Assembly: GCA_964567895.1 (NCBI GenBank)
Contig: CAZMOX010000001.1
Span: 20,992 to 84,991, forward strand
Reading direction: 5' to 3'
Source: an uncultured Spirochaetales bacterium
GTDB lineage: Bacteria > Spirochaetota > Spirochaetia > JABMQR01
DNA length: 64,000 nt
Shown: positions 573 to 21,422 of the stretch, one piece after another
Numbering within the stretch: position 1 is the stretch's first letter
Layout: each line of letters starts with the position of its first letter
Made by a program: the position numbers and the translations under genes
The notes under the pieces: model-generated
The model's input: the letters and a program-made list of their open reading frames with translations, nothing else
What the model was told of the DNA's origin: nothing
Databases searched by the model: none

Positions 573-3500
573 ATGAGGAAAATATTTGGTGTCCTGATTA
601 CAGCTTTACTGCTCTCTCTCTTCCTTGTTTCCTGTGAATCTTACGAAGTCGTACGGGAGCCGGTAATTGTAGAATCAGTCGAACCTATTGCAGCTCCTGC
701 TGCAGATATTTCGGATTCTACTCCAAGTACAGAAGCGGTTCCAGAGCAAGAACCTGAAGCCGAAACACGTCAATCCGAACCTGAGATTGAAATAGAATTA
801 GCCGTAGAAGAACCAATTGTTGAACCAATTGCCGATGAAACTCCTGTCCTTGAGCCGATTGAAGCTGAAATAGTGGAAGTAGAAATAGAAGAAGAAATCT
901 CTGAACCAGTAATTAAAGAGGTCGCTCCGATAGAGACTCTGGAAACAGAGTTGCCCGTCGAAGAACCTCCAGCAGAAGTTCTTGTCACAGAACCAGCAAT
1001 CCCGGAAGAAGAACTAGTTGAAACTATTCCTGAATCGGAACCCGAGCCGGAAGTGGTAATGGAAATAATCATTGAGGAACCGGTTATTGAACCAATTGCC
1101 GATGAAACTCCTGTCCTTGAGCCGATTGAAGCTGAAATAGTGGAAGTAGAAATAGAAGAAGAAATCTCTGAACCAGTAATTAAAGAGGTCGCTCCGATAG
1201 AGACTCTGGAAACAGAGTTGCCCGTCGAAGAACCTCCAGCAGAAGTTCTTGTCACAGAACCAGCAATCCCGGAAGAAGAACTAGTTGAAAATGTTCCTGA
1301 ATCGCAACCGGAAGATATTGTTATCGAGTTTCCTCTTTCACTACCGGTACTATCAAATGAACGTCATCCTGAAAAAACAACTCCTGATTTAAAAACTACT
1401 ACACCTGAGACACCAATAGTCACAGAACTTCCGGAAAGTGCAATAATCGAAACTGAAGATGAAATTGTTGAACCGGAAGTATTAGTCGAACCCGAAATAA
1501 CAGAGATTCCGCCAGAGCCGGAACCTGAATCTGTTCCTGAATCATCAGTTGAACCTGAAGCCAGCCCTGAAGTATCAGAAGAACCAGAAATATCCGAAAC
1601 ACCTGCAGTACATGATGTGTCTGCAGTACCAGAGGTGCCTGTAGTAAAGTATGTCTCTATTTTTGACTCTATAAGAGACAACGAATTGACAGTAACTGAA
1701 CGTTTTATACTTGATGGAGCAGATCCAAACCAGATTGATGAATTCGGAACTCCACCGCTTTATATTGCTGCCGGAACAGGTAATGAGTTAATGATCAGTC
1801 TATTGCTTAAACATGAAGCAGATCCTTCAGTACCAAATGCAGAAGGACAGCTTCCTATACATGCTGCAGCAGAAATTTCTTATGAACTTGCCTCACTCCT
1901 AACAGGAAATGGAAGTCTTATATTTTCAGTTAGTGAGCTTGGAATCAATACGCTAGAAAAAGCCCTTTTAGATGGACCAAAAGCTGTTACAGAACTTCTC
2001 GGTGAAGATCTTGTAAACACAGCAGATGAATACGGAAACACTCCGCTTCATCTGGCAGCAGAGATGGGCGGTGTTGAGAACGTCAGACAATTGCTTATAA
2101 ACGGTGCCGATATCAATATTCGCAACAATAATGATCTCCTACCGCTTGATGTTGCTTTTGGATATACCCACAGCGGTAAACATGTACAAGTAGTTGAAGA
2201 GCTCATTAAAAACTATTCAGACATCCCGTCAAATCAGACTTTTTATTACGCATTCCAGGCAATATCTAATACCGGTGTTGATTCCCGATTTGAAAATGGA
2301 GCAACGGTCCTGCACTATACTGCTCAGTACAACCATCCTGCCCTTATGAGTATGTTTATTAAACGCGGTGCTTATCTGGAAGCACGTGATGAAAACAACA
2401 ACACGCCGATTCACATAGCTGTAGAGTATGGAAATCTTGAAATTGTTGAACTTCTTATTCATTCCGGGGTAGATGTTGATGTAAGAAATGGATCCAGCAG
2501 CACCCCCCTGCACTTAGCGGTAACCCAAAGCGGTAAAAAGGATATTATTGAGTACTTGCTGGACAGTGGTGCTGACATAAACAGCAGAAATATCTTTGGC
2601 GACACTGCCCTTCATATATCCGTAGATCCTGAAGTTTCCTCTGAATTTGTTAAGCTGCTCCTACTCAGGAATGCTGACCCAAACAGCTGTGACAAAACAG
2701 GGAATACTCCCATCATGCTGGCTCTTGCACGTGATAATCGTGAGGCAGTGGAACTTCTCCTGGCAAACAACGCAGATTTATACGCAAAAAACTATAATAA
2801 AATTACTCCGCTCATCCGTGCTCTCATGAAGGGAACAGGTGTAATAAATTGGTTTTATACTCCGGAGATGAATAAAACAATTGATGCATATGGTAATACC
2901 CCTCTGCATACAGCAGTAACTAACAGAGCAGAAATTGATGTGGTCGATTTTATCGTTAATGCTGGAGCTGATCTTAATAAAAAGAATTTTCTCGGTGATA
3001 CCGCACTTCACTCAGCAGTCGAGGTTGATTATGTAGATGCTGCAGCTCTTATGATCGACTATGGAGCCGATCCATTCCTGGCTAATAACCGGGGAAAAGC
3101 TCCGGCTGTTTTGGCCTTTGAACGGGGAATTGAATTCACTTCCCGATTAATAACAACTGAAAACCTCTCTATGACTGACATATCCGGAAACACCCCACTT
3201 CATTTAGCCGCACAGTGGGACTATCTTGATATCGTTTCAGACCTCATTGAACAGGGTGCAGATGTTAATACTCATAATAAAGAAGGATTTACCCCAATTC
3301 ATTATGCGGCAAAAAACAACAGTAGTGAAGTATGTCTGATTCTTGCAAATAACAGTGCACTCATAGATGCGCGGGATTCTTATGGGAATACCCCATTACA
3401 CACCGCTGTATCCTGGGAATCTGTTCAGGCTGCTAAGTTTCTGCTGTTTCGCGGAGCCAATGTTCACTTACGGAATTTAAGCGGAAACACTCCGCTGCAT

Positions 3501-4340
3501 ACAGCAGTCTTACAGCGGGATCAGAATAGTGTAAAAATGCTCATAGAATATGGAGCATCTCTTGAATCCAGAGATAATGTGGGAAGGACTCCCCTTCTGC
3601 TTGCAACAAGAAAGAATTACTGGGAGTTATCAGAACTTCTCATATCACTTGGAGCAGACTTCAATGCGAGAGATAACCGGGGAAATACACCGCTTCATGA
3701 GGCAATCCGGAACAGAAATGAAAAAATATGTACTATTCTAATTGAAGAGGGTGCAGCAATTTTTGCCGAAAATCGGTATGGGGACACCCCTATCAGTCTT
3801 GCGTTTACGGCTGGGGTTGATGTTGTGGACTGGTTTATAAAAGGAGATTCTATATCTGCAAGAGATGATAAAGGTAATACTCCAATCCATTCGGCAATCC
3901 AGAACAACTCTTCCGGGGATATTATCAATCTGTTGATCAGTAAAGGTGCAGATATAAACAGCAGAAATAATTGGATAAATACACCACTGCATACAGCATT
4001 CCTTTCTCTCAATAAAAATGCAGTACTTATCCTCAGTGCGGCCGGAGCTGATATTTTTTCAAGAAATGGCGATGGAAATTCACCTCTTTCCATAGCTTTC
4101 TCTGTGGGTACAGATTCATTATCCTGGATTGTTACGGCCGAAAACAAAGATGTTACAGATCAGTATGGAAATACTCCGCTTCATATTGCAGCTTCCTATG
4201 GGAACAAAGATGCGGTTATCTATCTTATGTCGATTGGAATTTCATCTGAAATAAAAAATCTGGCAGGCGATACGCCGGCAGATATGGCAAGAAAACAGGA
4301 TCATCCGGAACTTGCAACGCTGTTGAGGGAAATTGAGTAA
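573..4340 (+). CDS. large ankyrin-repeat lipoprotein. N-terminal signal peptide with lipobox LVSC, a ~330-aa acidic E/P/V/I-rich low-complexity linker, then more than 20 consecutive ankyrin repeats (roughly 25-27 by length)
   Basis: The N-terminus MRKIFGVLITALLLSLFLVSC gives a signal peptide with a Cys lipobox. Recurrent ankyrin consensus motifs (GNTPLHxAA..G, xxLLxxGADxNxxxxxGxTPL) run from about aa 370 to the C-terminus. Confidence 0.85.
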   Translation: MRKIFGVLITALLLSLFLVSCESYEVVREPVIVESVEPIAAPAADISDSTPSTEAVPEQEPEAETRQSEPEIEIELAVEEPIVEPIADETPVLEPIEAEIVEVEIEEEISEPVIKEVAPIETLETELPVEEPPAEVLVTEPAIPEEELVETIPESEPEPEVVMEIIIEEPVIEPIADETPVLEPIEAEIVEVEIEEEISEPVIKEVAPIETLETELPVEEPPAEVLVTEPAIPEEELVENVPESQPEDIVIEFPLSLPVLSNERHPEKTTPDLKTTTPETPIVTELPESAIIETEDEIVEPEVLVEPEITEIPPEPEPESVPESSVEPEASPEVSEEPEISETPAVHDVSAVPEVPVVKYVSIFDSIRDNELTVTERFILDGADPNQIDEFGTPPLYIAAGTGNELMISLLLKHEADPSVPNAEGQLPIHAAAEISYELASLLTGNGSLIFSVSELGINTLEKALLDGPKAVTELLGEDLVNTADEYGNTPLHLAAEMGGVENVRQLLINGADINIRNNNDLLPLDVAFGYTHSGKHVQVVEELIKNYSDIPSNQTFYYAFQAISNTGVDSRFENGATVLHYTAQYNHPALMSMFIKRGAYLEARDENNNTPIHIAVEYGNLEIVELLIHSGVDVDVRNGSSSTPLHLAVTQSGKKDIIEYLLDSGADINSRNIFGDTALHISVDPEVSSEFVKLLLLRNADPNSCDKTGNTPIMLALARDNREAVELLLANNADLYAKNYNKITPLIRALMKGTGVINWFYTPEMNKTIDAYGNTPLHTAVTNRAEIDVVDFIVNAGADLNKKNFLGDTALHSAVEVDYVDAAALMIDYGADPFLANNRGKAPAVLAFERGIEFTSRLITTENLSMTDISGNTPLHLAAQWDYLDIVSDLIEQGADVNTHNKEGFTPIHYAAKNNSSEVCLILANNSALIDARDSYGNTPLHTAVSWESVQAAKFLLFRGANVHLRNLSGNTPLHTAVLQRDQNSVKMLIEYGASLESRDNVGRTPLLLATRKNYWELSELLISLGADFNARDNRGNTPLHEAIRNRNEKICTILIEEGAAIFAENRYGDTPISLAFTAGVDVVDWFIKGDSISARDDKGNTPIHSAIQNNSSGDIINLLISKGADINSRNNWINTPLHTAFLSLNKNAVLILSAAGADIFSRNGDGNSPLSIAFSVGTDSLSWIVTAENKDVTDQYGNTPLHIAASYGNKDAVIYLMSIGISSEIKNLAGDTPADMARKQDHPELATLLREIE
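821..1291. repeat. two identical 204-bp segments (821-1024 and 1088-1291) repeated with a 267-bp period inside the acidic linker of the ankyrin lipoprotein
   Basis: Direct sequence identity of gaaccaattgccgatgaaactcctgtccttgagccgattgaagctgaaatagtggaagtagaaatag...ggaagaagaactagttgaaa at both positions. The repeat encodes the duplicated peptide EPIADETPVLEPIEAEIVEVEIEEEISEPVIKEVAPIETLETELPVEEPPAEVLVTEPAIPEEELVE. Confidence 0.9.
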
Positions 4341-12099: not shown

Positions 12100-12825
12100 A
12101 TGAACATGATGAACCAGACCTATCAGAAAGTTTCCGCCGGAATTATTGAGAGGCTTGTTGATATTTGCGGCAAGAGAAACGTTTATACCGGCGAAGAGAA
12201 AATGGAAGCCTACTCTCATGACGAAGTAGCGGAATCTAAATACTTCAGAATGCCGGGGGTCGTAACCAATACGATAAATGATGTCCTGAAAGAAGATGGG
12301 TTATGGTTCGCGGGATATCCCATGAGTCTCGAAACATGTTTTATTGGTGGGAATGTCGCGGATAACAAAACGACAATTGAGAGGATCTGGAATATCCGCA
12401 GGAATATTGCCGAAGCCTTCAAGGTGAAGAGCTCTCATCAGAGTCTGGAGGATATTGTTGTACCCACCGCTGCCATACCTTCATTCATGGATGAACTACA
12501 GCTTCTGATAAAAAAGTATGATATTCCTGTTCCCTGTTATGGACACGCGGGTGACGGAAATCTTCACGCTACTGTTGTAAAGCCTGGCGGGATGTCCCCT
12601 TCTGACTGGGAAGAGAAGCTTCCCCTGCTTCTGGAAGATATCTACAAGATTACCGCCTCTCTGGGATGGGTCATATCCGGGGAACACGGAATTGGGTCAA
12701 AACGGAAAAACTTTATTGGAATAAATCTCTCTCCCGATGAAATAGCCCTTATGAAAAGACTCAAAAAGGCTTTTGACCCCAACTGGATCCTGAATCCCGG
12801 AAAGATATTCCCGGATGAGGACTGA
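12100..12825 (+). CDS. FAD-linked oxidase (GlcD/LctD-like) remnant. The ORF is in frame, but two internal segments (FAD-binding PCMH core and cap region) are missing.
   Basis: The N-terminus YSHDEVAESKYFRMPGVV and the C-terminal FAD-oxidase_C motifs (CYGHAGDGNLH, GEHGIGSKRK, NPGKIF) are present. Only about 70 aa separate them, where full-length members have about 300 aa. Confidence 0.6.
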   Translation: MNMMNQTYQKVSAGIIERLVDICGKRNVYTGEEKMEAYSHDEVAESKYFRMPGVVTNTINDVLKEDGLWFAGYPMSLETCFIGGNVADNKTTIERIWNIRRNIAEAFKVKSSHQSLEDIVVPTAAIPSFMDELQLLIKKYDIPVPCYGHAGDGNLHATVVKPGGMSPSDWEEKLPLLLEDIYKITASLGWVISGEHGIGSKRKNFIGINLSPDEIALMKRLKKAFDPNWILNPGKIFPDED

Positions 12826-13888
12826 CGGTATGATCGACTCGATTATTGATGATGAATTGAAAATGGGAACTTTTCCGGGAATTGTTATTCTTGTCAGAAA
12901 AGAAGGACACATTGTACTTTCTATGGCTAAGGGACAAAGGCAGATATACCCGGATTCTGAAGAAATGACATTCGATACAGTTTTTGATCTTGCTTCTCTG
13001 ACAAAGCCCCTGGCTACGACTGTAACCGCCCTTTCTATCCTGGAAAAAGAGAAATTATCTCCCTTGAGTGAAGCTGGAAAATTTATTCCTGAACTTGCAA
13101 AAGGAACAGCTTCTATTACTCTTCATCAGCTTTTTACCCACACTTCCGGACTTCCGCCTGTACCGGAAATCTTTAGGCTTTTCCCGGTAGAAGATGATAT
13201 TGATCAGGAAAAATCCTTGAGTCATCTTTATTCAATTACTCCAACAGTAAAGCCTGGAGTTCGGGTCATATACAGTTGTACAGGGTATATCCTTCTTACC
13301 CAAATCCTGAAAAGGATAACCGGAAGTGATCTTCCCGAACTATTTACGAGACTTATTACGGTTCCTGGGACAATCGATAGTCTTATGTTCAATCCCCCCG
13401 CGGGAACAGGAAATATCGCCCCTACCGAATATTGTTCCTGGCGAAAGAGATGGCTTAAGGGGGAGGTTCATGACGAGAATTCATACTGCCTGGAGGGGGC
13501 GGGAGGTAATGCCGGACTATTTGGGACTGCTTCCGGTGTACTGGAAATACTCAGTCTGTTTAGGGATGACGGGGTTCTGAATAACAATCAAGTCCTCTCA
13601 AAGAAGAGTGTGAGGCTGATGACTTCTAATCAAACCCCCGGCCTTTCGCCAAAAAGGGCATATGGATTTCTGATGCAGGATGAGGGGGTCATGGCTGGAC
13701 CTGCCTTTAGTCCGGAGGCTTTCGGTCATACAGGTTTTACCGGCACAAGTGTCTGGATCGATCCGGATAGAAAACTTGAGTTTGTGATTTTCACTAACAG
13801 GGTTCACCTTGGAAGGAATACAAACAGCGATAAGATCAAATCCTTCAGGGAAAGGATACATACCGCCCTTGTCCGGGAACTTTGCTAA
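12815..13888 (+). CDS. serine hydrolase, beta-lactamase/AmpH-like family
   Basis: Active-site S-x-x-K motif in FDLASLTKPLATT. At 357 aa the size fits class C beta-lactamase or PBP-like esterases. Confidence 0.75.
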   Translation: MRTDGMIDSIIDDELKMGTFPGIVILVRKEGHIVLSMAKGQRQIYPDSEEMTFDTVFDLASLTKPLATTVTALSILEKEKLSPLSEAGKFIPELAKGTASITLHQLFTHTSGLPPVPEIFRLFPVEDDIDQEKSLSHLYSITPTVKPGVRVIYSCTGYILLTQILKRITGSDLPELFTRLITVPGTIDSLMFNPPAGTGNIAPTEYCSWRKRWLKGEVHDENSYCLEGAGGNAGLFGTASGVLEILSLFRDDGVLNNNQVLSKKSVRLMTSNQTPGLSPKRAYGFLMQDEGVMAGPAFSPEAFGHTGFTGTSVWIDPDRKLEFVIFTNRVHLGRNTNSDKIKSFRERIHTALVRELC

Positions 13889-13900
13889 ACCGCGCTGACT

Positions 13901-14755
13901 TTACTTAGTGAATCTCTTAATTGCCCTTACCTTTCTGGTTCTATCCAGATACTTTTTTATTTCCGGATATTCAATGCTGCCCACACCGGTAAAAAGGATA
14001 TCAATGACATTCAATTGAGCAATACGTGAGCCGCGGGCCCCGCTTCTCATACTTGTTTCGGGGGAGGATATAAACAATTTGATGTCCGCTTTTTCGCTTA
14101 AAGTATTATTTCCGAATTTTGTGATTGAAATTGTTGTGGCACCTGTCGTTTTTGCAATTTTTATAGTCTCAACCATATCTCTTGTCTCTCCTGAATAGGA
14201 GATAAATACCGCTACATCCACCATTGAAAGGTTCGCCGCGGCGGTTGCCTGAAGATGAGTGTCCGCGTAGGCCATTGAATATCTGTTGATCCTCATAAAT
14301 TTCTGCTGGGCATCAAGAGCAATGATTCCTGATGCTCCTACACCATAGAAATCGATTCGTTTTGACATATGCAGGACATCTACAGCCCTTTTAATCTCCT
14401 TCGGATCCAGAACAAGGAGGGTATCAGTTATCGATTTTTTATTATTGTGAGAAACATTCTTGATTATCGTATCGAGATTATCTCCGACCCGAATATCTGT
14501 ATATATCTCTTCATTTTCCTTTGTCGATGAGATGTCGGAAGCCATCTTGATTGCAAATTCCCTGTATCCCTCAAATCTCAGGGTTTTACAGAAACGGATA
14601 ACAGCCGCATTGCTGGTGTTGCACCTTTCCGCGAGTTCTCCAACAGAAAGTCCAACGGATTCCTCTGGAAAATTGAGTATATAACTGGCAACCTTTTTTT
14701 CTGATGGTTTTAAATCGTTTAATGCTTCTTTAACTTTTAAAAGACATCCGTTCAT
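13901..14755 (-). CDS. MurR/RpiR-family transcriptional regulator (HTH plus SIS domain)
   Basis: The HTH VGELAERCNTSNAAVIRFCKTLRFEGYREF is typical of RpiR, with a C-terminal SIS domain. It overlaps the upstream nagZ by 4 bp. Confidence 0.8.
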   Translation of the reverse strand: MNGCLLKVKEALNDLKPSEKKVASYILNFPEESVGLSVGELAERCNTSNAAVIRFCKTLRFEGYREFAIKMASDISSTKENEEIYTDIRVGDNLDTIIKNVSHNNKKSITDTLLVLDPKEIKRAVDVLHMSKRIDFYGVGASGIIALDAQQKFMRINRYSMAYADTHLQATAAANLSMVDVAVFISYSGETRDMVETIKIAKTTGATTISITKFGNNTLSEKADIKLFISSPETSMRSGARGSRIAQLNVIDILFTGVGSIEYPEIKKYLDRTRKVRAIKRFTK

Positions 14756-16254
14756 TTAACAGTCTCCGTATTAGATTTTATGAATAGTTTTTGCAATATT
14801 TCTTTCTGCTGGCTGCTACTATATCCAAATGAGCAAATTGCATTTTCAATACCCCTGATATCTGCATCATAGGGGTTCCTTAGCGCGATCAGCACAAGAT
14901 CATCAGAAAGCCTGGCTAGCTTCTCTATGAACTCTACCTGTGAGAGTGCAAGGTGTGCGTTTTCTGTAAAGATGATATTTCGTTTCCCTGCCGCAGTCTT
15001 TAACAGGGAAGCTGATTCTTCTTTAGAAATTTCCCTGCTGTAAACAGTTATAGGACACTTCAGGAACTCTCCGGTTCTGGTCACAGCCATGTGTATTCCC
15101 TGCAGGGTGTCTTCCACCAGTACAAGCCTGGCTGCTTTAACCGCAAAAATATTGTCAACCCTGTTTAAGGGGATAAGATTGCTCCTGTTTTTCCGTATTC
15201 TTACCGATTCTGAGGATATTCTGTCCATTTCAACCCTGTTGTCCTCAAATTCCAAACGGATATCAGCAGGGGGTTCTGTTTCTTTACGCTGCCTGAACAG
15301 ATTTTCAATCCTGCCCGCGGCCCCGGAGATTCTTTCCGCGAGCTTATCGTTTTCGACAATCTTCCCATCCAGAAACTTCCTGACTTGTATCTGTTTTTCC
15401 GTATTATCACAGAAAGAGATCATGTCCATCCCCGCTTCCAGTGTTTTTAATGCGATTTCTTCAGGGGGATAGAAATTGGACACTCCCCCCATATTGAGAT
15501 CATCTGCAATAAGAACTCCTTCATACTTTAATTCATCCCGGATCATATCTGTAAGGACTTCCCTGGAAACAGTTATAGGCTCCTTTGAAGTCTGGATTGC
15601 AGGTACATGGATATGTGTAGGCATCCAGCTTGGAGAATTAATAGCAAGAAAGGGCGCAAGTTCAGTCCGGTATATCTCATCCCTGGAAATATTGAGAATG
15701 GGCATATCCAGATGAGGATCGGTAACAACTCTTCCGATTCCGGGAAAGTGTTTCAGGCATGTTATGATCCCGCTCTCCCTCAAGCCTGCTGTAAACTTCG
15801 AAGCATACTCAATTACAGTATCCTTGTCCCTGGAAAAACTCCGAATACCGATACCCGGGTTCTGAGAATTATTGTTGATATCGACCACCGGCGCAAGGTT
15901 CCAGTCAATACCGACTGCCTTCATTTCTGATCCGAGTATTATTCCTGCTCTGTATGCATTGTTCGGATTCTCTGTAGATGCCAACGCCATGGCGCTGGGT
16001 GAAACAGTAAATCCCTTTGTAAGTCTTGTGACTATTCCTCCCTCCTGATCAATTGCTATGAGTGGTTTATAGCCAAGGAAGTCTGTAATTCCCCTGATAA
16101 AAGCTACAACCTGCTCTCTATCTTTTATATTTCGCCCAAACAGAATGACTGATCCCGGCCGTACTACCTCAAGCACTCTTTTCGCCGGATCATTAATTTC
16201 CGAGGAGGGTAATCCAATCATGAAAATTTTTCCGGTCAGCTCCTTCAAATCCAT
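14752..16254 (-). CDS. nagZ: beta-N-acetylhexosaminidase (glycoside hydrolase family 3)
   Basis: GH3 N-terminal motifs LIAIDQEGGIVTRL and KHFPGIGRVVTDPHLDMP. The protein is 500 aa. Confidence 0.85.
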   Translation of the reverse strand: MDLKELTGKIFMIGLPSSEINDPAKRVLEVVRPGSVILFGRNIKDREQVVAFIRGITDFLGYKPLIAIDQEGGIVTRLTKGFTVSPSAMALASTENPNNAYRAGIILGSEMKAVGIDWNLAPVVDINNNSQNPGIGIRSFSRDKDTVIEYASKFTAGLRESGIITCLKHFPGIGRVVTDPHLDMPILNISRDEIYRTELAPFLAINSPSWMPTHIHVPAIQTSKEPITVSREVLTDMIRDELKYEGVLIADDLNMGGVSNFYPPEEIALKTLEAGMDMISFCDNTEKQIQVRKFLDGKIVENDKLAERISGAAGRIENLFRQRKETEPPADIRLEFEDNRVEMDRISSESVRIRKNRSNLIPLNRVDNIFAVKAARLVLVEDTLQGIHMAVTRTGEFLKCPITVYSREISKEESASLLKTAAGKRNIIFTENAHLALSQVEFIEKLARLSDDLVLIALRNPYDADIRGIENAICSFGYSSSQQKEILQKLFIKSNTETVK

Positions 16255-16413
16255 TTTGGTATTGTAACATGAACATACGCATGTTACAATATATATTTTT
16301 ATAGATGGTAATTTGTTTTGAAATATATTTTTATAAGCTTTTTGTGTTCTGTTATTTCTGATCTGATCGATTCAGCTTCCTGTAAAAAAAACCATACTCT
16401 TTCAACAGCTGTT

Positions 16414-17490
16414 TCATGGGATCATTGTGCCTGAAATCCCCAGTCCCGGAGCTTCAGGCAGCGTTATTACAGTACCATGATATTCGGTACCACCTTTTTC
16501 CTTTTTCTCGCTGCAGAGAAGGGGCACATCAAGATCCACCTCCCGGACTACTGCTCTCGCCGCTGCCAAATGAGCAGCGGCGGTCAAGCCTGCATGGCTC
16601 TCCATCATTGATCCAACCATACAGAAAAGACCGGCTGTTTCTGCAATATCCGCTATTTTAACCGCATTGTAGATCCCCCCGGACTTCATAAGTTTGATGT
16701 TTATTCCGTCAGCCGCTCCCATATTAACGATCCTCAGAGCATCCGCAGGGGAAAAAACACTTTCGTCTGCTATCACCGGAACCGTCACCCTCTCTCTGAC
16801 ATAACGCATTCCTTCAAAATCATCCGCACCAACAGGCTGTTCTACAAAATCGAGCCCGATACCCTCATTCTGCATGAGGTTTACAATCTCTACCGCTTCT
16901 TTCGGTTTCCATCCCTGGTTTGCATCAATTCTGAGCCTTACATCCGAGCCTGCCGCTTCCCGGACAGCCTTAATTCTGGCTAAATCCATTTCGGTATTTC
17001 CGCCGACCTTGATTTTTAGTATTTTTACTCCCTGACGCACTGCTTCCATGCTCTCTTCTGCCATCTCCTCAGGTGAATTAAGGCTGATAGTAAGATCTGT
17101 AACAAGGGTGTTTCTGAATCCCCCCAGAAGCCTGTAGACCGGTGCTGAATAGAACTTTCCATACAGATCGTAAATGGCCATATCCACTGCAGCTTTCGCG
17201 GAAGTGTTTCCGGCCATGGAGCCGTTGATTTTCTGCATTATTATTTCCAGGTTTCTGATATCGAGTCCTACTATCCTGTCTATGATAAACTGTATACCTT
17301 CTGTTATAGAACCAGCTGTATCCCCTGTTATCACAGCAGTCGGGGCGGCGCCGCCGTACCCGGTTTTATCGGAGTCAGTGGTAATCTCGATCAGAATATT
17401 CTCAATGGATTCGAGGGTTCTCAAGGCAGTCTTGAATGGTCTTTTCAGACCTGTTGACATCCGACTAATTTTTACTCCTGTTATCAGCAT
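16414..17490 (-). CDS. enolase-superfamily dipeptide epimerase (L-Ala-D/L-Glu epimerase-like, MR/MLE family)
   Basis: 358 aa. The capping and barrel domains carry metal-binding acidic residues in the MR/MLE pattern (IDANQGW...DESV...), as in muropeptide-recycling epimerases. Confidence 0.7.
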   Translation of the reverse strand: MLITGVKISRMSTGLKRPFKTALRTLESIENILIEITTDSDKTGYGGAAPTAVITGDTAGSITEGIQFIIDRIVGLDIRNLEIIMQKINGSMAGNTSAKAAVDMAIYDLYGKFYSAPVYRLLGGFRNTLVTDLTISLNSPEEMAEESMEAVRQGVKILKIKVGGNTEMDLARIKAVREAAGSDVRLRIDANQGWKPKEAVEIVNLMQNEGIGLDFVEQPVGADDFEGMRYVRERVTVPVIADESVFSPADALRIVNMGAADGINIKLMKSGGIYNAVKIADIAETAGLFCMVGSMMESHAGLTAAAHLAAARAVVREVDLDVPLLCSEKKEKGGTEYHGTVITLPEAPGLGISGTMIP

Positions 17491-17495
17491 AAATT

Positions 17496-17927
17496 CTATG
17501 TAATTCCTTTCTGTTGGTTTTTCCAGTCTGATCTGATCCTCATAAGGTTGGCGGTGTCTGATAATTCTGAAATTGTCTTGACTGCACCGGTGTTCTCTAC
17601 CAAGTGATTATAGTGATTATAGTGATTATAGTGATTATGATCATACCACCGGTGCCAGGTTCCAGTCAATGCCAGCTGCCCTGTACGCATTGTCCGGATT
17701 CTTTGTAGATGCCAGCGCCATGGCACCGGGTGAAACAGTAAATCCTTCCGTAAGTCTTCAATTGCCCTGATAAAACCTACAACCTGCTCTCTATCTTTTA
17801 TATTTCGCCCAAACAGAATGACTGATCCCGGCTGTACTACCTCAAGCACTCTTTTCGCCGGATCATCAATTTCCGGGGAGGGTAATCCAATCATGAAAAC
17901 TTTTCCGCTCAGCTCATCTAAATCCAT
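17496..17927 (-). pseudogene. decayed duplicate of the nagZ 5' end. About 58 N-terminal codons are conserved, followed by out-of-frame junk with internal deletions.
   Basis: The translation MDLDELSGKVFMIGLPSPEIDDPAKRVLEVVQPGSVILFGRNIKDREQVV closely matches the NagZ N-terminus at 16254. The DNA of 17648-18000 aligns to 15890-16350 with two deletions. Confidence 0.8.
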
Positions 17928-18073
17928 TTTGGTATTTTAACATGAACATAAATGTGTTACATATATATATTTTTATAAGCTTTTTGTGTTCTGTTATTTC
18001 TGATTTGATCCTCGTAAGTTTGGCGATATCTGATAATTCTGAAACTGCCTTGACAGCACCGATGTTCTCTACC
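17524..18073. repeat. segmental duplication of the nagZ 5' end and promoter region, with deletions. A ~75-bp element (ttctgatctgatcctcataaggttggcggtgtctgataattctgaaattgtcttgactgcaccggtgttctctacc) sits at both ends, at 17524-17600 and 17997-18073. Its beginning also occurs at 16356.
   Basis: Direct DNA comparison with 15890-16385. Confidence 0.8.
17604..17639. repeat. 9-bp microsatellite (gtgattata) x4, at the junction of the duplicated nagZ fragment
   Basis: The sequence gtgattatagtgattatagtgattatagtgattatg is directly visible. Confidence 0.9.
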
Positions 18074-18692
18074 TTGCGAATTTCTCAACTATGCTAAATC
18101 CGCTTTTTATGAGAAGGTAGTATACAATCATTCTCGGGATCCGTGAAAAACAGGCAATAAATACCTTTTTTGATGGTACTTCCAACAATCCGGCAATCCA
18201 GCAAATAGTGGAAAAAGGAATCGGAGTAAAACCGGCTATAACTACTGCCCAGGCTCCATATCGGTTGATTAATGACTCTCCCCGTTTTCTGTAAGAACTT
18301 GTCACCCTTTGCACATAGCGGAAGTGATTAAAACTTCTTGCTATCCAGTATCCCAAATATCCTCCAAGAATTGATGCTGCTGACATTACAGATAAAAGTA
18401 AATAGGGATCCCACTCCATAGCAAATGGAAAAACGACATCGGCAGTAGTCGGGATAATAATGGCATCAACAACAAAGATATAAATTGCTACACCACTATA
18501 CCCAAGCTCCCTTCCAAGCCATATACCGATTTTTGCCAACTGTTCACGGAAAAGCAGGCCGAGGATACCATATATAACCAATATAGCTGCGGCTAATAGG
18601 AATGTTTTAATAATGAGAGATTTCCACTGCAGCGGTTGGTCAATAATATCTTGTTTAGAATCCTTTTGTTCCATGCTCTTATATTTCTCCAT
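18069..18692 (-). CDS. DedA/TVP38 (VTT-domain) family membrane protein
   Basis: 207-aa multi-pass membrane protein. The VTT-like core (GYLGYWIARSF...TPIPFSTICWIAGLLEVP) is typical of the DedA family. Confidence 0.65.
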   Translation of the reverse strand: MEKYKSMEQKDSKQDIIDQPLQWKSLIIKTFLLAAAILVIYGILGLLFREQLAKIGIWLGRELGYSGVAIYIFVVDAIIIPTTADVVFPFAMEWDPYLLLSVMSAASILGGYLGYWIARSFNHFRYVQRVTSSYRKRGESLINRYGAWAVVIAGFTPIPFSTICWIAGLLEVPSKKVFIACFSRIPRMIVYYLLIKSGFSIVEKFAR

Positions 18693-19398
18693 GCAGGTAA
18701 GCTACCCGCTCCTCTTCAGGGAATTTCTCAATAGCGTATCGAAGCATCGTGCGGGGCATAGATTTATACCGGGTATCAAGGTAATCCCGTTCGGCCTGAG
18801 GATCTCTATTTCCTACCTCTCTCAGCATCCACCCTACTGCTTTATGGATAAGGTCATGAGGATGATCAAAGAGGATATCTGCAATCTTAAGTGTGGTAGT
18901 ATAATCCTGCTGCCTGATAAAATAGTAGGTCGTTATTATGGCTATTCGCTGATGCCAGAGATTGTCAGCAGTTGCCAGCTCTACTAATTTTGTCCGATCT
19001 CTTCCGTAAAACCAGGGGCCCAGTATTTTGGGACAGGTAACATCGACAAGATCCCAGTTATTAATCCAGTCCATATGGGTTACATAGAAATCAACATAGG
19101 GTTTTGGATCTGATCTCCCCGATCGGCTTTCAGCACCTGCAACAAGCATGAGTAGTGCTGTCATTCGGTGATCATGTACTTCAGACATGATCAATATACT
19201 CAACTGATCCAAAGGACAGTCACGAAAATTGAGTCGCGCAATTTTTCTCTGTTCAGGGATTGTGATGCCGAGAAATCTATCATCTTCCCCATATTGTCCG
19301 GGACCGGTTTTAAAAAACCTCTCCAACTGTTTAGCTTTTTCAGGGTTGGCCAGAGCTTCCAGTTCACTCATTATAGTTTCAGCAAGTACCATGAACAC
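18679..19398 (-). CDS. DNA alkylation repair enzyme (AlkD-like HEAT-repeat glycosylase family)
   Basis: The fold pattern LEALANPEKAKQLERFFKTGPGQYGEDDRFLGI...WDLVD is characteristic of the DNA_alkylation family. Confidence 0.65.
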   Translation of the reverse strand: MFMVLAETIMSELEALANPEKAKQLERFFKTGPGQYGEDDRFLGITIPEQRKIARLNFRDCPLDQLSILIMSEVHDHRMTALLMLVAGAESRSGRSDPKPYVDFYVTHMDWINNWDLVDVTCPKILGPWFYGRDRTKLVELATADNLWHQRIAIITTYYFIRQQDYTTTLKIADILFDHPHDLIHKAVGWMLREVGNRDPQAERDYLDTRYKSMPRTMLRYAIEKFPEEERVAYLHGEI

Positions 19399-19411
19399 TC
19401 CTTCTGTGATG

Positions 19412-20731
19412 CTATTCCTGCCCTACAAGTTTTACAAATTCTGCCAAAAATCTATCTATCCCACCACCATCCATGCTGCTCCCTTTTCCTTGCCAAACAG
19501 GAGGTTTCCCTCCGCCTTTTGCATCTATTAAAGGAAACAGGATTTTTCTCACAGCAGGAAAATCCACAAGGTTTTCCCGATTTGCTGCAATAGACCAAAT
19601 TAAATCAGTTTCATCAAGTTTCTGGATTCCACAGAAAACCAGAGGTTTGTCTGTGGGAAGATTCTTTACGGCGTTTTTCAAAAAACCAGGTCGCTCGGTA
19701 CTGAAATCACCGATAATAACAGGAATATTGTTGTAACTAACAGCCTGAGACGCCAATTCTGTCATTTTCAGACGGACAACCGTGGTTTCAAGTTCCAAAA
19801 CGATTTGCTGGGCAATTCTGAGCTGCTCTGCTTTAGCAATAGCAGAGGCAACTATACTGTTCTGCGGTGAGGAGTAGAGTTCCGACAGTTTCTTTACTAT
19901 TTCTGTTTTTTCCCGATAATCCTGAAGTGCCCTATCTCCGACCTTCCAAATGAGACGAGCATGCCCGCGAATTTTCTCCAGCCCTATCCACGAAACCAGA
20001 CGTACTTCACTGCTATCGGAAATATGCATGCCGCCGCAGGCAACAATATCATACGCTCCAACCTGTACCAGTCTAACATCCCCGGAAACTTTTGGAGCCC
20101 TTCGCAGATTCATTTTTCCAGCTTCTACATCGTCTACAGTAAAAATAGTGATGGGAATATTCTGGGTAATAATCCGGTTTGTCTCATTTTCTACAGCAAG
20201 TATCTCCTCTTCACTTATCTCTTCCCGATCGGTCTCGATAGTAAGATACTCTTCTCCCTGATGCACAGATACGGTAGCAATTGCACATAAAGAGTGCATT
20301 ACTCCTGATAAAATATGCTGACCTGTGTGCTGCTGCATATAATCATACCGTCGATCCCAGTCAAGTGTACAATCAACAACATCACCTGGCTGAAATTCAG
20401 GGAATTTCTCTGTGATATGATATATATATACGTCTTTTTTTCTGGTATCGATTATCCTGGCGCTCCCAATAAATCCGGTATCACCCGGTTGTCCGCCCCC
20501 TTCAGGGTAGAAAATGGTATGGCTCAAAACAATCCCATAATTATTTTTCAGCTGAACCACTTTTTGGATAGTAACTGAATCTACTCTTTTGTACTGATCG
20601 TTATAATATGTTTGTTCTGTCATGGGATCATTGTACGGGGTTTTAGAATGGGGAGCAAGCAGAAATATAATTGATGGACTTTCAACTATCATTACATGAT
20701 TTTTTTGTCTATTGATGTTGTTATTTTGCAT
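19412..20731 (-). CDS. alaX: alanyl-tRNA editing protein AlaX-L (AlaRS editing domain plus DHHA1)
   Basis: Zinc-binding editing motifs HTGQHILSGVMH (HxxxH) and CGGMHISDSSEV (CxxxH), plus a C-terminal DHHA1-like GGGKPPVWQGKG. Confidence 0.7.
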   Translation of the reverse strand: MQNNNINRQKNHVMIVESPSIIFLLAPHSKTPYNDPMTEQTYYNDQYKRVDSVTIQKVVQLKNNYGIVLSHTIFYPEGGGQPGDTGFIGSARIIDTRKKDVYIYHITEKFPEFQPGDVVDCTLDWDRRYDYMQQHTGQHILSGVMHSLCAIATVSVHQGEEYLTIETDREEISEEEILAVENETNRIITQNIPITIFTVDDVEAGKMNLRRAPKVSGDVRLVQVGAYDIVACGGMHISDSSEVRLVSWIGLEKIRGHARLIWKVGDRALQDYREKTEIVKKLSELYSSPQNSIVASAIAKAEQLRIAQQIVLELETTVVRLKMTELASQAVSYNNIPVIIGDFSTERPGFLKNAVKNLPTDKPLVFCGIQKLDETDLIWSIAANRENLVDFPAVRKILFPLIDAKGGGKPPVWQGKGSSMDGGGIDRFLAEFVKLVGQE

Positions 20732-20786: not shown

Positions 20787-21422
20787 ATGGCACGAATTCG
20801 TTCAGCTTTAGAAATAGCCCTTGAGAGAACTGAATCAGTAGCAGGAGATCCTGAAAAAATCAGGAACAGTGAACTCATAAAAACTGGTAAAAGATTAATG
20901 GGCACCTTTTTATTTGAGCATGATTCGACCGCGGAATCACTTGCAGAAAAGTTGAACGCTATTCCGGAGGCTGATCGGACACTTGTCAGAAAGCATATGA
21001 TTGAAACTCTTATGTTAAACATCTCCTTACCACAGGATGAATTGTATGTTATGGCTCTTGGGAAGTTAAAAAGCGCTTCAGAACTTCTTGCCCCTAATAC
21101 CGAAATCAATACGGAAGTTGCTGAGGAAACTGTCCCGGAATCTAATCCTGTAACACAGCTTTTCATACAACTTGATCAACTGTACCTTCAATACCTGCAG
21201 TCCCGTGAACAATTATTGGAAATGGCAAAACAGCAGTATGCTCCTCATTTAAAACAGAAAGAAGAACAACTGTCCCGCCAAACAGGTAAACAGGTGAATC
21301 TACAACCGGAACAGGATCCTGATTTTATTAAATTCCTGGAAGCAAACTATCAGAAGCTGGAAGAGAAATTCCAGGAAGCTATTCAGGGATTACGCGATCA
21401 ATTGAGAACGTTGCTCGGGTAA
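20787..21422 (+). CDS. hypothetical protein with a coiled-coil, Q/E/L-rich C-terminal half
   Basis: The ORF has an AGGA-like ribosome-binding site. No recognisable family. Confidence 0.4.
   Translation: MARIRSALEIALERTESVAGDPEKIRNSELIKTGKRLMGTFLFEHDSTAESLAEKLNAIPEADRTLVRKHMIETLMLNISLPQDELYVMALGKLKSASELLAPNTEINTEVAEETVPESNPVTQLFIQLDQLYLQYLQSREQLLEMAKQQYAPHLKQKEEQLSRQTGKQVNLQPEQDPDFIKFLEANYQKLEEKFQEAIQGLRDQLRTLLG

What the first reader, a model, noticed from the sequence alone, without database searches (positions are those of the whole stretch)
15890..18073. Decayed duplicate of the nagZ 5' end and promoter flanking the dipeptide epimerase, with a (gtgattata)4 microsatellite
About 500 bp comprising the first ~100 codons of nagZ plus its upstream region (15890-16385) recur at 17648-18015. 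There is roughly 10% divergence and two internal deletions, giving the 143-aa pseudo-ORF.

A ~75-bp element is present at both ends of the duplicate, and its start also occurs at 16356. A 9-bp tandem microsatellite lies at the junction.

This points to past duplication or recombination that placed the epimerase gene between two copies of the nagZ promoter region. No transposase is present. The duplicated promoter may still drive the epimerase or the dedA gene.
Basis: seen in the sequence. Interest (0 to 1): 0.5.

Follow-up and report, generated by a model that had tools for sequence, protein, structure and literature searches.

The report
Decayed duplication scar around a peptidoglycan-recycling epimerase
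An uncultured spirochaete carries a real but broken second copy of the start and promoter of its nagZ gene just upstream of a neighbouring cell-wall-recycling gene; it is an ordinary scar of a past duplication or recombination event, still shifting slightly in the wild population.

Summary
All genes lie on the minus strand, in the order dedA-like | 75-nt spacer E75(B) | nagZ promoter copy P(B) | nagZ' remnant | 43-nt filler holding the 9-bp x4 microsatellite | E75(A) | L-Ala-D/L-Glu epimerase | 12 nt of the E75 end | P(A) | intact nagZ | rpiR.

The upstream copy (429 nt) equals the 1718-nt downstream unit minus four deletions of 1170, 58, 31 and 30 nt. Each deletion is flanked by short direct repeats. 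The copies also differ by about 9-12% substitutions.

It is not an assembly artefact. The same structure occurs at 99.3-100% identity in about 20 separate contigs from independent metagenome assemblies.

The closest relative (nagZ 74% identical in protein) has a single epimerase-nagZ-rpiR unit. The epimerase is therefore ancestral here, not inserted.

Best reading: a direct-duplication scar with a decaying upstream copy. The copied promoter is largely intact: extended -10 kept, -35 weakened. It could feed the epimerase. It cannot drive dedA, which lies upstream on the same strand.

The microsatellite varies in the population (2, 3 or 4 units). Two singleton contigs look like the deletion and amplification products of recombination between the copies, but neither is verified at read level.

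This is an ordinary kind of feature, with low to moderate interest.

The parts
14752..16254 (-). Intact nagZ (GH3 beta-N-acetylhexosaminidase, 500 aa). Codons 1-123 (15884-16254) are the part repeated in copy B.
   Evidence: PF00933 E=1.8e-66; orthologues 74-58% identical in spirochaetes.
16255..16356 (-). P(A), the nagZ promoter region. It reads TTGTAA-N17-TG-n-TACAAT, then 6 nt, then ATG. It contains the 31 nt that copy B lacks.
   Evidence: Promoter scan hit 16289->16261. The geometry is conserved in five orthologous loci.
16262..16289 (.). Inverted repeat with perfect 10-bp arms, TTGTAACATG-N8-CATGTTACAA; flanking complementary bases extend the predicted stem to 12 pairs. It overlaps the -35 and -10 boxes of P(A). 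It is derived in copy A; B and the outgroup lack it.
   Evidence: Fold z = -3.98 for A against -0.02 for B.
16357..16368 (.). 12-nt direct repeat TCTGATCTGATC, identical to the first 12 nt (plus strand) of E75(A). It marks one end-point of the 1170-nt deletion that removed the epimerase from copy B.
   Evidence: families D3/D4 overlap at 17999-18010.
16414..17490 (-). L-Ala-D/L-Glu-type epimerase (enolase superfamily, 358 aa), flanked by the two repeat copies.
   Evidence: PF13378 and PF02746. It is 71% identical to the epimerase at the same position in the closest relative.
17527..17601 (-). E75(A), the 75-nt spacer element upstream of the epimerase.
   Evidence: family D3. No RNA structure signal; no Rfam hit.
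17602..17644 (.). 43-nt filler at the novel joint. It includes the (AGTGATTAT)x4 microsatellite at 17603-17638; on the gene strand each unit reads TATAATCAC.
   Evidence: Alleles of 2, 3 and 4 units occur. No significant homology to nagZ downstream of codon 123.
17645..17927 (-). nagZ' remnant. Codons 1-58 are in frame. A 58-nt frameshifting deletion and a 30-nt deletion follow, and the remnant ends at the equivalent of codon 123.
17496..17927 (-). 143-codon chimeric pseudo-ORF running through nagZ', the filler, E75(A) and the leader. Its TAG stop lies 5 nt before the epimerase ATG.
17640..17669 (-). Promoter-like site TTGACT-18-TG-n-TATGAT created at the joint. It is a consensus match only.
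   Evidence: 10 of 12 matches, the best in 16150-18750, but the overall count is not above the shuffles.
17928..17998 (-). P(B), the copy of the nagZ promoter. It reads ATGTAA-N17-TG-n-TAAAAT, then 6 nt, then ATG. It lacks 31 nt and the palindrome is not formed.
17999..18073 (-). E75(B), which begins at the dedA stop codon and fuses to P(B) at the 12-nt repeat.
18069..18692 (-). dedA/VTT-domain membrane protein gene, the upstream neighbour and the left boundary of the duplication.
   Evidence: PF09335.

Best explanation
This is the scar of a direct (tandem) duplication in the chromosome of an uncultured spirochaete.

A 1718-nt unit was duplicated head to tail. The unit runs from just after the dedA stop codon, through the 75-nt spacer, the epimerase gene and the nagZ promoter, to nagZ codon 123. 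The two units are joined through 43 nt of filler DNA.

The redundant upstream unit then decayed:
- A 1170-nt deletion between two 12-nt direct repeats removed its epimerase.
- Three further deletions of 58, 31 and 30 nt followed, each flanked by microhomology.
- Point substitutions accumulated to about 9-12%.

What remains is a 429-nt remnant, E75(B)-P(B)-nagZ'. It encodes no functional NagZ.

Inferred consequences, not shown:
1. The remnant keeps the extended -10 box of the nagZ-type promoter, though its -35 is weaker. That box sits 6 nt before an ATG, and the reading frame from that ATG stays open to 5 nt before the epimerase start. It may therefore add nagZ-like transcription and translational coupling to the epimerase.
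2. The two diverged direct repeats and the joint microsatellite remain substrates for slippage and unequal recombination in the population.
For: Structure:
- The copies are colinear and in the same orientation. Sizes add up exactly: 1718 - (1170+58+31+30) = 429 nt.
- Each deletion is flanked by a direct repeat present twice in A and once in B: TCTGATCTGATC, AAGTCT, ATATAT..TTTATA and CTGC.

Polarity:
- The closest relative (L020/L021) has a single epimerase-nagZ-rpiR-beta-lactamase unit.
- Its epimerase-nagZ spacer aligns with P(A), including the 31 nt missing from B.
- So the epimerase is ancestral and B is the deleted form.

Reality:
- The structure recurs in about 20 separate contigs from independent JGI and ENA assemblies.

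No mobile-element features are present. There is no RNA family or fold signal in E75.

Promoter inference:
- TGnTAnAAT lies exactly 6 nt before the ATG, with no Shine-Dalgarno sequence, in five orthologous loci and in both window copies.

Open leader ORF:
- 85 codons stay open after the frameshift; shuffle P is about 0.006.

Ongoing instability:
- Microsatellite alleles of 2, 3 and 4 units occur.
- L116 is a B/A chimeric, in-frame, full-length nagZ lacking the epimerase.
- L117 is an A/B chimeric joint linking the epimerase 3' end to the epimerase 5' end.
Against: - Polarised amino-acid changes do not show the remnant as the more derived copy. B keeps the outgroup state at about 7 positions (4, 10, 21, 55, 87, 95, 98); A keeps it at about 4.
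- Synonymous and non-synonymous differences are unevenly spread: codons 1-58 have 1 synonymous and 11 non-synonymous, while codons 77-123 have 10 and 5. A simple 'in-situ duplication, then neutral decay of B' does not predict this. Numbers are small and there is a strong transition bias.
- No unduplicated allele of the same species was found, and no intermediate relatives exist in the databases.
- L116 and L117 are singletons from MEGAHIT assemblies. Pattern scans of JGI metagenome contigs found neither junction.
- P(B) falls below the consensus threshold of the promoter scan because its -35 is weaker.
- One population variant (L015) has an IS element between P(B) and the epimerase. P(B) may therefore not be needed.
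Confidence: 0.6

Rival explanations
1. Loss followed by re-acquisition through homology-facilitated illegitimate recombination.

In this model a resident lineage had already lost the epimerase through the 12-nt repeat deletion, giving dedA-E75-P-nagZ. DNA from a relative about 10% diverged, carrying E75-epimerase-P-nagZ..., then integrated. One end joined illegitimately inside the resident nagZ at codon 123, creating the filler joint. The other end recombined by homology downstream.

Copy B would then be the truncated resident gene and copy A the imported allele.
For: - It explains why B retains ancestral residues at least as well as A.
- It explains why codons 77-123 differ mostly at synonymous sites, as between two functional genes.
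- It explains how about 10% divergence can sit inside a population that differs by 0.2% or less at this locus.
- Imported tracts at high SNP density exist close by in some contigs: window 19777-20279 with about 45 SNPs and 21215-21335 with 23 SNPs.
Against: - No B-type full-length nagZ and no lineage at 75-99% identity exist in a 15-billion-protein collection.
- Codons 1-58 show the opposite pattern, 1 synonymous against 11 non-synonymous differences.
- The model needs two rare events, whereas tandem duplication is common.
- L116 is not a pure resident type. It is A-type from codon 51 onward.
Confidence: 0.25
2. The epimerase is an inserted cassette, and the 12-nt repeats (16357-16368 and 17527-17538) are a target-site duplication. 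The ancestral locus would then be dedA-E75-P-nagZ.
For: An identical 12-nt direct repeat flanks a 1158-nt segment that holds only the epimerase.
Against: - There is no transposase, integrase or terminal inverted repeat.
- The closest relative has the epimerase (71% identical) immediately upstream of nagZ, with a homologous spacer. An insertion would therefore have to pre-date a split far older than the 10% A/B divergence.
Confidence: 0.03
3. Assembly artefact: two strain variants of the nagZ 5' region were stitched in tandem.
For: The window comes from metagenome-type data, and the copies differ by about 10%, which resembles strain or species variants.
Against: - The identical joint, deletions and filler occur in about 20 separate contigs from different samples and assemblers, both JGI and ENA.
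- Copy B has its own unique flanks, the dedA stop on one side and the filler plus E75(A) on the other.
- Length alleles of the microsatellite exist within the same structure.
Confidence: 0.02
4. The remnant is kept by selection as a working regulatory and copy-number device.

- P(B), together with the open leader ORF, would express the epimerase.
- The flanking repeats would let the epimerase be deleted or amplified by unequal recombination.
- Pop-out would regenerate an intact nagZ, because B keeps the promoter and 58 in-frame codons.
For: - The extended -10 box is conserved in P(B).
- The frame stays open for 85 codons after the frameshift (P about 0.006) and ends 5 nt before the epimerase ATG.
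- All length alleles keep the frame.
- L116 and L117 look like reciprocal recombination products.
Against: - 9-nt units keep the frame automatically.
- The open frame is a post-hoc observation.
- L116 and L117 are unverified singletons.
- An IS-interrupted variant exists.
- The remnant has lost 119 nt in small deletions.
- No expression data are available.
Confidence: 0.1

Closest known systems
Bacterial tandem duplications and their decay into gene remnants (duplication-amplification literature, e.g. PMC1428787, found; text not read)
   Same: - Head-to-tail repeat of a kb-sized unit with a novel joint.
- The redundant copy is eroded by deletions between short direct repeats.
- No mobile element is required.
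   Different: - Only one decayed remnant is left.
- The copies are about 10% diverged, which is unusually old for an unselected tandem duplicate, or else points to an imported allele.
- It is seen in an uncultured natural population, not in laboratory selection.
Recombination between direct repeats of about 0.4 kb that flank an intervening segment (experimental system in Deinococcus radiodurans: 438-bp repeats, 1.5-10.5 kb spacers; PMC4627823, abstract seen)
   Same: - The geometry is nearly identical: 429-nt repeats, about 1.7 kb start to start.
- The expected product is a precise deletion that restores one intact gene, as in contig L116.
   Different: - Here the repeats are only about 90% identical, and the longest identical run is 56 nt.
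- The product is seen once and is not verified at read level.
RecA-dependent copy-number phase variation between flanking repeats (IS-mediated duplication in Burkholderia thailandensis; PMC9946442, abstract seen)
   Same: A region bounded by direct repeats that could switch between one copy, more copies or none within a population.
   Different: - The repeats here are duplication remnants, not IS elements.
- No phenotype or stable subpopulation has been demonstrated.
- Membership was not established.
Simple-sequence-repeat contingency loci (own knowledge: Haemophilus and Neisseria promoter or ORF repeats)
   Same: A perfect short tandem repeat near a promoter-like site, polymorphic in copy number (2, 3 or 4 units).
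   Different: - The unit is 9 nt, so it never shifts the frame.
- It lies downstream of the only properly spaced -10 box, not between the -35 and -10 boxes.
- No on/off logic is evident.
Homology-facilitated illegitimate recombination in naturally transformable bacteria (own knowledge)
   Same: One homologous anchor plus one illegitimate joint with filler would give this architecture and an instant 10% divergence.
   Different: No donor lineage has been identified, and transformability of this organism is unknown.

Membership tests
Direct (tandem) segmental duplication with decayed copy | Two colinear copies in the same orientation, adjacent on the chromosome | tested here: met
   four colinear blocks at 86-98% identity, all direct, with no other copy in the window.
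Direct (tandem) segmental duplication with decayed copy | The end of one unit abuts the start of the next (a novel joint) | tested here: met
   The equivalent of nagZ codon 123 (17645) is joined through a 43-nt filler to the first base of E75(A) (17601). E75(B) starts at the dedA stop codon.
Direct (tandem) segmental duplication with decayed copy | The shorter copy is explained wholly by deletions from the longer one | tested here: met
   1718 - (1170+58+31+30) = 429 nt. Every deletion is flanked by a 4-12-nt direct repeat. The outgroup shows the 31 nt are ancestral.
Direct (tandem) segmental duplication with decayed copy | A single-copy arrangement in relatives or in the same species | tested here: inconclusive
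   The relative at 74% protein identity has a single epimerase-nagZ-rpiR unit. No unduplicated allele of the same species was found among the 24 contigs read that carry dedA.
Transposon or cassette insertion of the epimerase | A transposase or integrase gene, or terminal inverted repeats | tested here: not met
   No such ORF or Pfam hit and no flanking inverted repeat.
Transposon or cassette insertion of the epimerase | An empty site in close relatives | tested here: not met
   L020 and L021 carry the epimerase at the same place with a homologous spacer.
Simple-sequence-repeat contingency locus | A perfect short tandem repeat that is polymorphic in copy number | tested here: met
   (4.0 copies, 100% identical). 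Alleles of 2, 3 and 4 units.
Simple-sequence-repeat contingency locus | A copy change shifts a reading frame or alters the -35/-10 spacing | tested here: not met
   The unit is 9 nt, a multiple of 3. The repeat starts one base after the TATGAT -10-like box, not in a promoter spacer.
Repeat-flanked amplifiable or deletable unit | Direct repeats with identical runs long enough for homologous exchange | tested here: met
   A 210-nt block at 92% identity, with identical runs of 56 and 23 nt at the two observed crossovers.
Repeat-flanked amplifiable or deletable unit | Deletion and amplification (or circle) products present in the population | tested here: inconclusive
   L116 (deletion with chimeric nagZ) and L117 (epimerase-to-epimerase joint) are each one MEGAHIT contig. 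There were no hits for either joint in JGI metagenome contigs. Reads could not be inspected.
Leaderless, extended -10 promoter (for nagZ and its copy) | TGnTAnAAT at a fixed short distance from the start codon, with no Shine-Dalgarno sequence, conserved in orthologues | tested here: met
   The -10 box lies 6 nt before the ATG in window copies A and B and in L020/L021, L105, L022 and L024.
Leaderless, extended -10 promoter (for nagZ and its copy) | A mapped transcription start at the A of the ATG | not testable with these tools
   No transcript data are available.
GH3 NagZ (for the remnant ORF) | An intact Glyco_hydro_3 catalytic domain | tested here: not met
   No Pfam hit for the 143-aa ORF. 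There is a frameshift after codon 58 and truncation at codon 123.

The most novel reading that the evidence does not exclude
The remnant is not junk but a maintained device. A copy of the leaderless nagZ promoter, plus a frame-preserved 143-codon leader ORF, would couple expression of the murein-peptide epimerase to nagZ-type control.

The two diverged repeats would let the epimerase be lost or amplified by unequal recombination. Each pop-out would regenerate a functional, in-frame nagZ. That would amount to a natural presence/absence and dosage switch for one step of peptidoglycan recycling.
Probability: 0.1. Interest if true: 0.55.

Novelty: new member of a known kind. Interest (0 to 1): 0.28.

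Why it matters
Mostly this is a clean worked example. A bacterial duplication scar can be reconstructed base by base: unit, joint, four microhomology deletions, and polarity from an outgroup. It is also seen fixed in a wild, uncultured population, with its microsatellite still varying.

If the recombinant contigs are real, remnants of an old duplication can keep a single metabolic gene excisable and amplifiable without any mobile element. If the copied promoter is active, this would be a natural case of promoter capture by duplication.

None of this changes current understanding, so the practical value is modest. It mainly matters for annotation: the 143-aa ORF should be flagged as a nagZ pseudogene fragment, not a hypothetical protein.

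Tried and rejected
1. E75 as an RNA element or terminator. Rfam found no hit in 14000-20000 at E<=1. Fold z-scores were -0.14 and +1.56. No terminator-like site was found on the gene strand. Of the nine A/B differences in E75, 7 would be non-synonymous in the open frame (own reading), so it is not a coding remnant either. Rejected; I treat E75 as plain spacer.

2. The microsatellite or filler as a derivative of nagZ codons 124 onward. The local alignment was no better than 28% of shuffles. Rejected.

3. The P(A) palindrome as a repeated operator. It is unique in the window, even allowing 3 mismatches. It is derived in A only. No regulon evidence was found.

4. The epimerase as an inserted cassette with a 12-nt target duplication. 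Contradicted by synteny in L020/L021.

5. Independent confirmation of the L116 and L117 junctions. Two pattern scans of JGI metagenome contigs returned 0 hits.

6. A B-type full-length nagZ allele or intermediate relatives. None exist in the 90% cluster or among the homologues.

7. The source genome in GTDB species representatives. It was not recovered. The nearest named record is a Spirochaetia MAG at 69% identity.

8. Literature on spirochaetes from the suspected source environment. Nothing useful was found.

9. A simple dN/dS reading of the remnant. The aggregate value is 0.43, but the two halves give opposite patterns and there is a strong transition bias. I do not lean on it.


Full report
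**1. What is in the sequence**

All genes in this stretch are on the minus strand. Pfam assigns them as follows:
- 18692->18069: a DedA/VTT-domain protein
- 17490->16414: an enolase-superfamily epimerase of the L-Ala-D/L-Glu type
- 16254->14752: a GH3 NagZ
- 14755->13901: an RpiR/SIS regulator
- 12815-13888 (plus strand): a beta-lactamase-fold protein

Four colinear direct blocks link 15884-16368 (copy A) to 17645-18010 (copy B) at 86-98% identity. That is 35 differences in 378 nt.

A 75-nt element occurs at 17527-17601 and 17999-18073 (66/75 identical). Its first 12 nt, TCTGATCTGATC, recur at 16357-16368. A perfect 9-bp x4 repeat lies at 17603-17638. The window holds no further copy.

**2. 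Anatomy on the gene strand**

The order is: dedA stop | E75(B) | P(B) | nagZ' | 43-nt filler with the microsatellite | E75(A) | 36 nt | epimerase | 45 nt | 12-nt repeat | P(A) | nagZ.

The A unit, from the first base of E75(A) (17601) to the last homologous nagZ base (15884), is 1718 nt. The B unit (18073->17645) is 429 nt. The difference of 1289 nt is exactly the sum of four gaps, each flanked by a short direct repeat that is present twice in A and once in B:

| Gap | Flanking repeat | Effect |
|---|---|---|
| 1170 nt | two TCTGATCTGATC copies | removes the whole epimerase |
| 58 nt | AAGTCT | frameshift after codon 58 |
| 31 nt | the ATATAT..TTTATA repeats, in the promoter region | shortens the promoter region |
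| 30 nt | CTGC | in-frame loss |

So B is A minus four microhomology deletions, plus substitutions.

**3. Not an artefact**

An exact look-up of the 143-aa ORF found it in 27 blocks of the collection. Together, the three look-ups for the ORF, the epimerase and dedA returned about 20 separate contigs that carry the whole structure. They come from independently assembled JGI and ENA metagenomes and match the locus at 99.3-100% identity.

The environment is not given by the tools. From memory, the JGI sample numbers resemble Antarctic saline-lake projects, but I could not verify that.

The nearest named NagZ is from Sediminispirochaeta at 58% identity. The nearest MAG title is 'Spirochaetia bacterium' at 69%.

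**4. Polarity from relatives**

The closest relative (L020/L021) has NagZ 74% and epimerase 71% identical. Its gene order is MFS(-) | epimerase | nagZ | rpiR | beta-lactamase(-), with no duplicate.

Its epimerase-nagZ spacer aligns with P(A) and contains the 31 nt that B lacks, so B is the deleted form. The epimerase-nagZ adjacency therefore pre-dates the A/B split. That rules out reading the 12-nt repeats as a target-site duplication of an inserted epimerase.

More distant relatives have NamZ(-) | nagZ | ABC transporter instead.

**5. Promoter**

The motif TG-n-TAnAAT lies exactly 6 nt before the ATG, preceded 17 nt upstream by TTGTAA-like bases, with no Shine-Dalgarno sequence. This holds in window copy A, copy B, L020/L021, L105, L022 and L024. 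The scan tool lists the A site.

I infer a leaderless, extended -10 nagZ promoter. P(B) keeps TGTTAAAAT and the 6-nt distance, but its -35 is weaker (ATGTAA), so it falls below the scan threshold.

Copy A has a derived cluster of four substitutions. B reads GTAACACATTTATG and the outgroup GTAACACAATTATG, while A reads GTAACATGCGTATG. These changes complete an inverted repeat with perfect 10-bp arms over the -35 and -10 boxes. Fold z is -3.98 for A against -0.02 for B, and the palindrome is unique in the window. It may be an operator; this is untested.

**6. The remnant ORF**

Translation from the P(B) ATG gives 58 NagZ codons, then a shifted frame. That frame stays open for 85 more codons through the filler, the microsatellite and E75(A). 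It stops at a TAG 5 nt before the epimerase ATG.

A shuffle gives P of about 0.006 for such openness. The other two frames have 3 and 6 stops over the same stretch. This is post hoc. It fits the idea that translation of the leader is useful, either by avoiding polarity or by coupling to the epimerase, but it does not prove it.

No terminator-like site lies between dedA and the epimerase on the gene strand. The best promoter-like match in the region is TTGACT-18-TATGAT at the joint. The overall count of such matches is not above chance (10 found against 6.0 +/- 2.6 expected).

P(B) cannot drive dedA, which lies upstream on the same strand.

**7. How the copies differ**

Nei-Gojobori counts over the 96 comparable codons give Sd 11 and Nd 16, with an aggregate dN/dS of 0.43. 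The distribution is uneven:
- codons 1-58: 1 synonymous, 11 non-synonymous
- codons 77-123: 10 synonymous, 5 non-synonymous

Transitions dominate the differences.

Polarising with nine outgroups, B keeps the outgroup residue at about 7 positions, including D21, which all nine outgroups share. A keeps it at about 4. So the intact gene is at least as derived as the remnant.

This is awkward for a simple 'duplicate, then B decays neutrally' history. It keeps alive a rival. In that rival, B is the truncated resident gene of a lineage that had lost the epimerase. A then arrived with the epimerase from a relative about 10% diverged, through one homologous and one illegitimate joint.

Imported tracts at high SNP density are indeed seen nearby in some contigs: 19777-20279 and 21215-21335. 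Against the rival, no B-type full-length allele or intermediate lineage exists in the databases. I favour in-situ tandem duplication at about 0.6 against 0.25 for the import model.

**8. Variation in the population**

- *Microsatellite.* Four units is the common allele. Three units occur in two samples and two units in two samples. All alleles keep the frame, which is automatic for a 9-nt unit.
- *L015.* An IS element (DDE_Tnp_1 transposase plus a 202-aa ORF) abuts window position 17689 inside nagZ'.
- *P0132.* This allele carries the ancestral R32 in copy B.
- *L116.* The order is dedA | E75(B) | P(B) | full-length nagZ | rpiR, with no epimerase. Its nagZ is B-type through codon 32 and A-type from codon 51. 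The crossover therefore falls in the 56-nt identical run, as expected for a pop-out between the repeats.
- *L117.* This 798-nt contig runs from the epimerase 3' end through P(A), A-type codons 1-10, B-type codons 18 onward, the filler and E75(A) to the epimerase 5' end. That is the reciprocal joint expected in a tandem amplification or an excised circle.

L116 and L117 are single MEGAHIT contigs. Neither joint was found in JGI metagenome contigs. I rate them as roughly even odds of being real.

**9. Comparison with what is known**

The feature works like, and is best filed under, bacterial tandem duplication followed by deletional decay. Its geometry matches experimental direct-repeat recombination substrates (PMC4627823). 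If the recombinants are real, it also matches repeat-flanked copy-number variation (PMC9946442, PMC1428787).

It fails the defining tests for a transposon or cassette insertion. It also fails those for a frame-shifting or spacer-changing contingency repeat.

**10. Verdict**

The mechanism is now specified, the dedA suggestion is excluded, and promoter capture by the epimerase remains plausible but untested. This is a new instance of a well-known kind of genome scar. Interest is 0.28.

Noticed in passing
window 820-1309: A 267-bp tandem repeat (1.8 copies, 98% identical) lies inside a 1255-aa ORF (573-4340, plus strand). The ORF has a lipoprotein-like N-terminus, a long acidic E/P-rich region and many ankyrin-type repeats by eye.
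   Followed up: partly
window 19777-20279 (AlaX-like gene) and 21215-21335: Some population contigs carry dense SNP tracts here, while the rest of the locus differs by 0.2% or less. L002, L004 and L014 have about 45 SNPs in about 500 nt; L006 and L009 have 23 SNPs in 120 nt. These look like tracts imported by recombination from diverged relatives.
   Followed up: partly
L015 1-2633, abutting window 17689: An IS element adjoins the nagZ' remnant in one sample. It carries a 440-aa DDE_Tnp_1/DDE_Tnp_1_assoc transposase and an upstream 202-aa ORF. A palindromic end lies near L015 430-475. The IS is absent from the 64-kb window.
   Followed up: partly
window 16305-16342 (in L001): Contig L001 has five clustered SNPs in the distal part of P(A), within and next to the 31-nt segment that copy B lacks. 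The cause is unknown.
   Followed up: no
window 16079-16254 against 17752-17927 (nagZ codons 1-58): There are 11 non-synonymous differences against 1 synonymous difference between the copies. About half of the changes are derived in the intact gene, including N21 where all nine outgroups have D. This is the opposite of codons 77-123 and remains unexplained.
   Followed up: partly
L020 9358-12819 and L022/L023/L105 upstream of nagZ: Relatives place nagZ next to other peptidoglycan-recycling genes: MurQ-like SIS, AnmK, NamZ and an ABC sugar transporter. Two alternative neighbourhoods exist, epimerase-nagZ-rpiR and NamZ(-)-nagZ-ABC.
   Followed up: no
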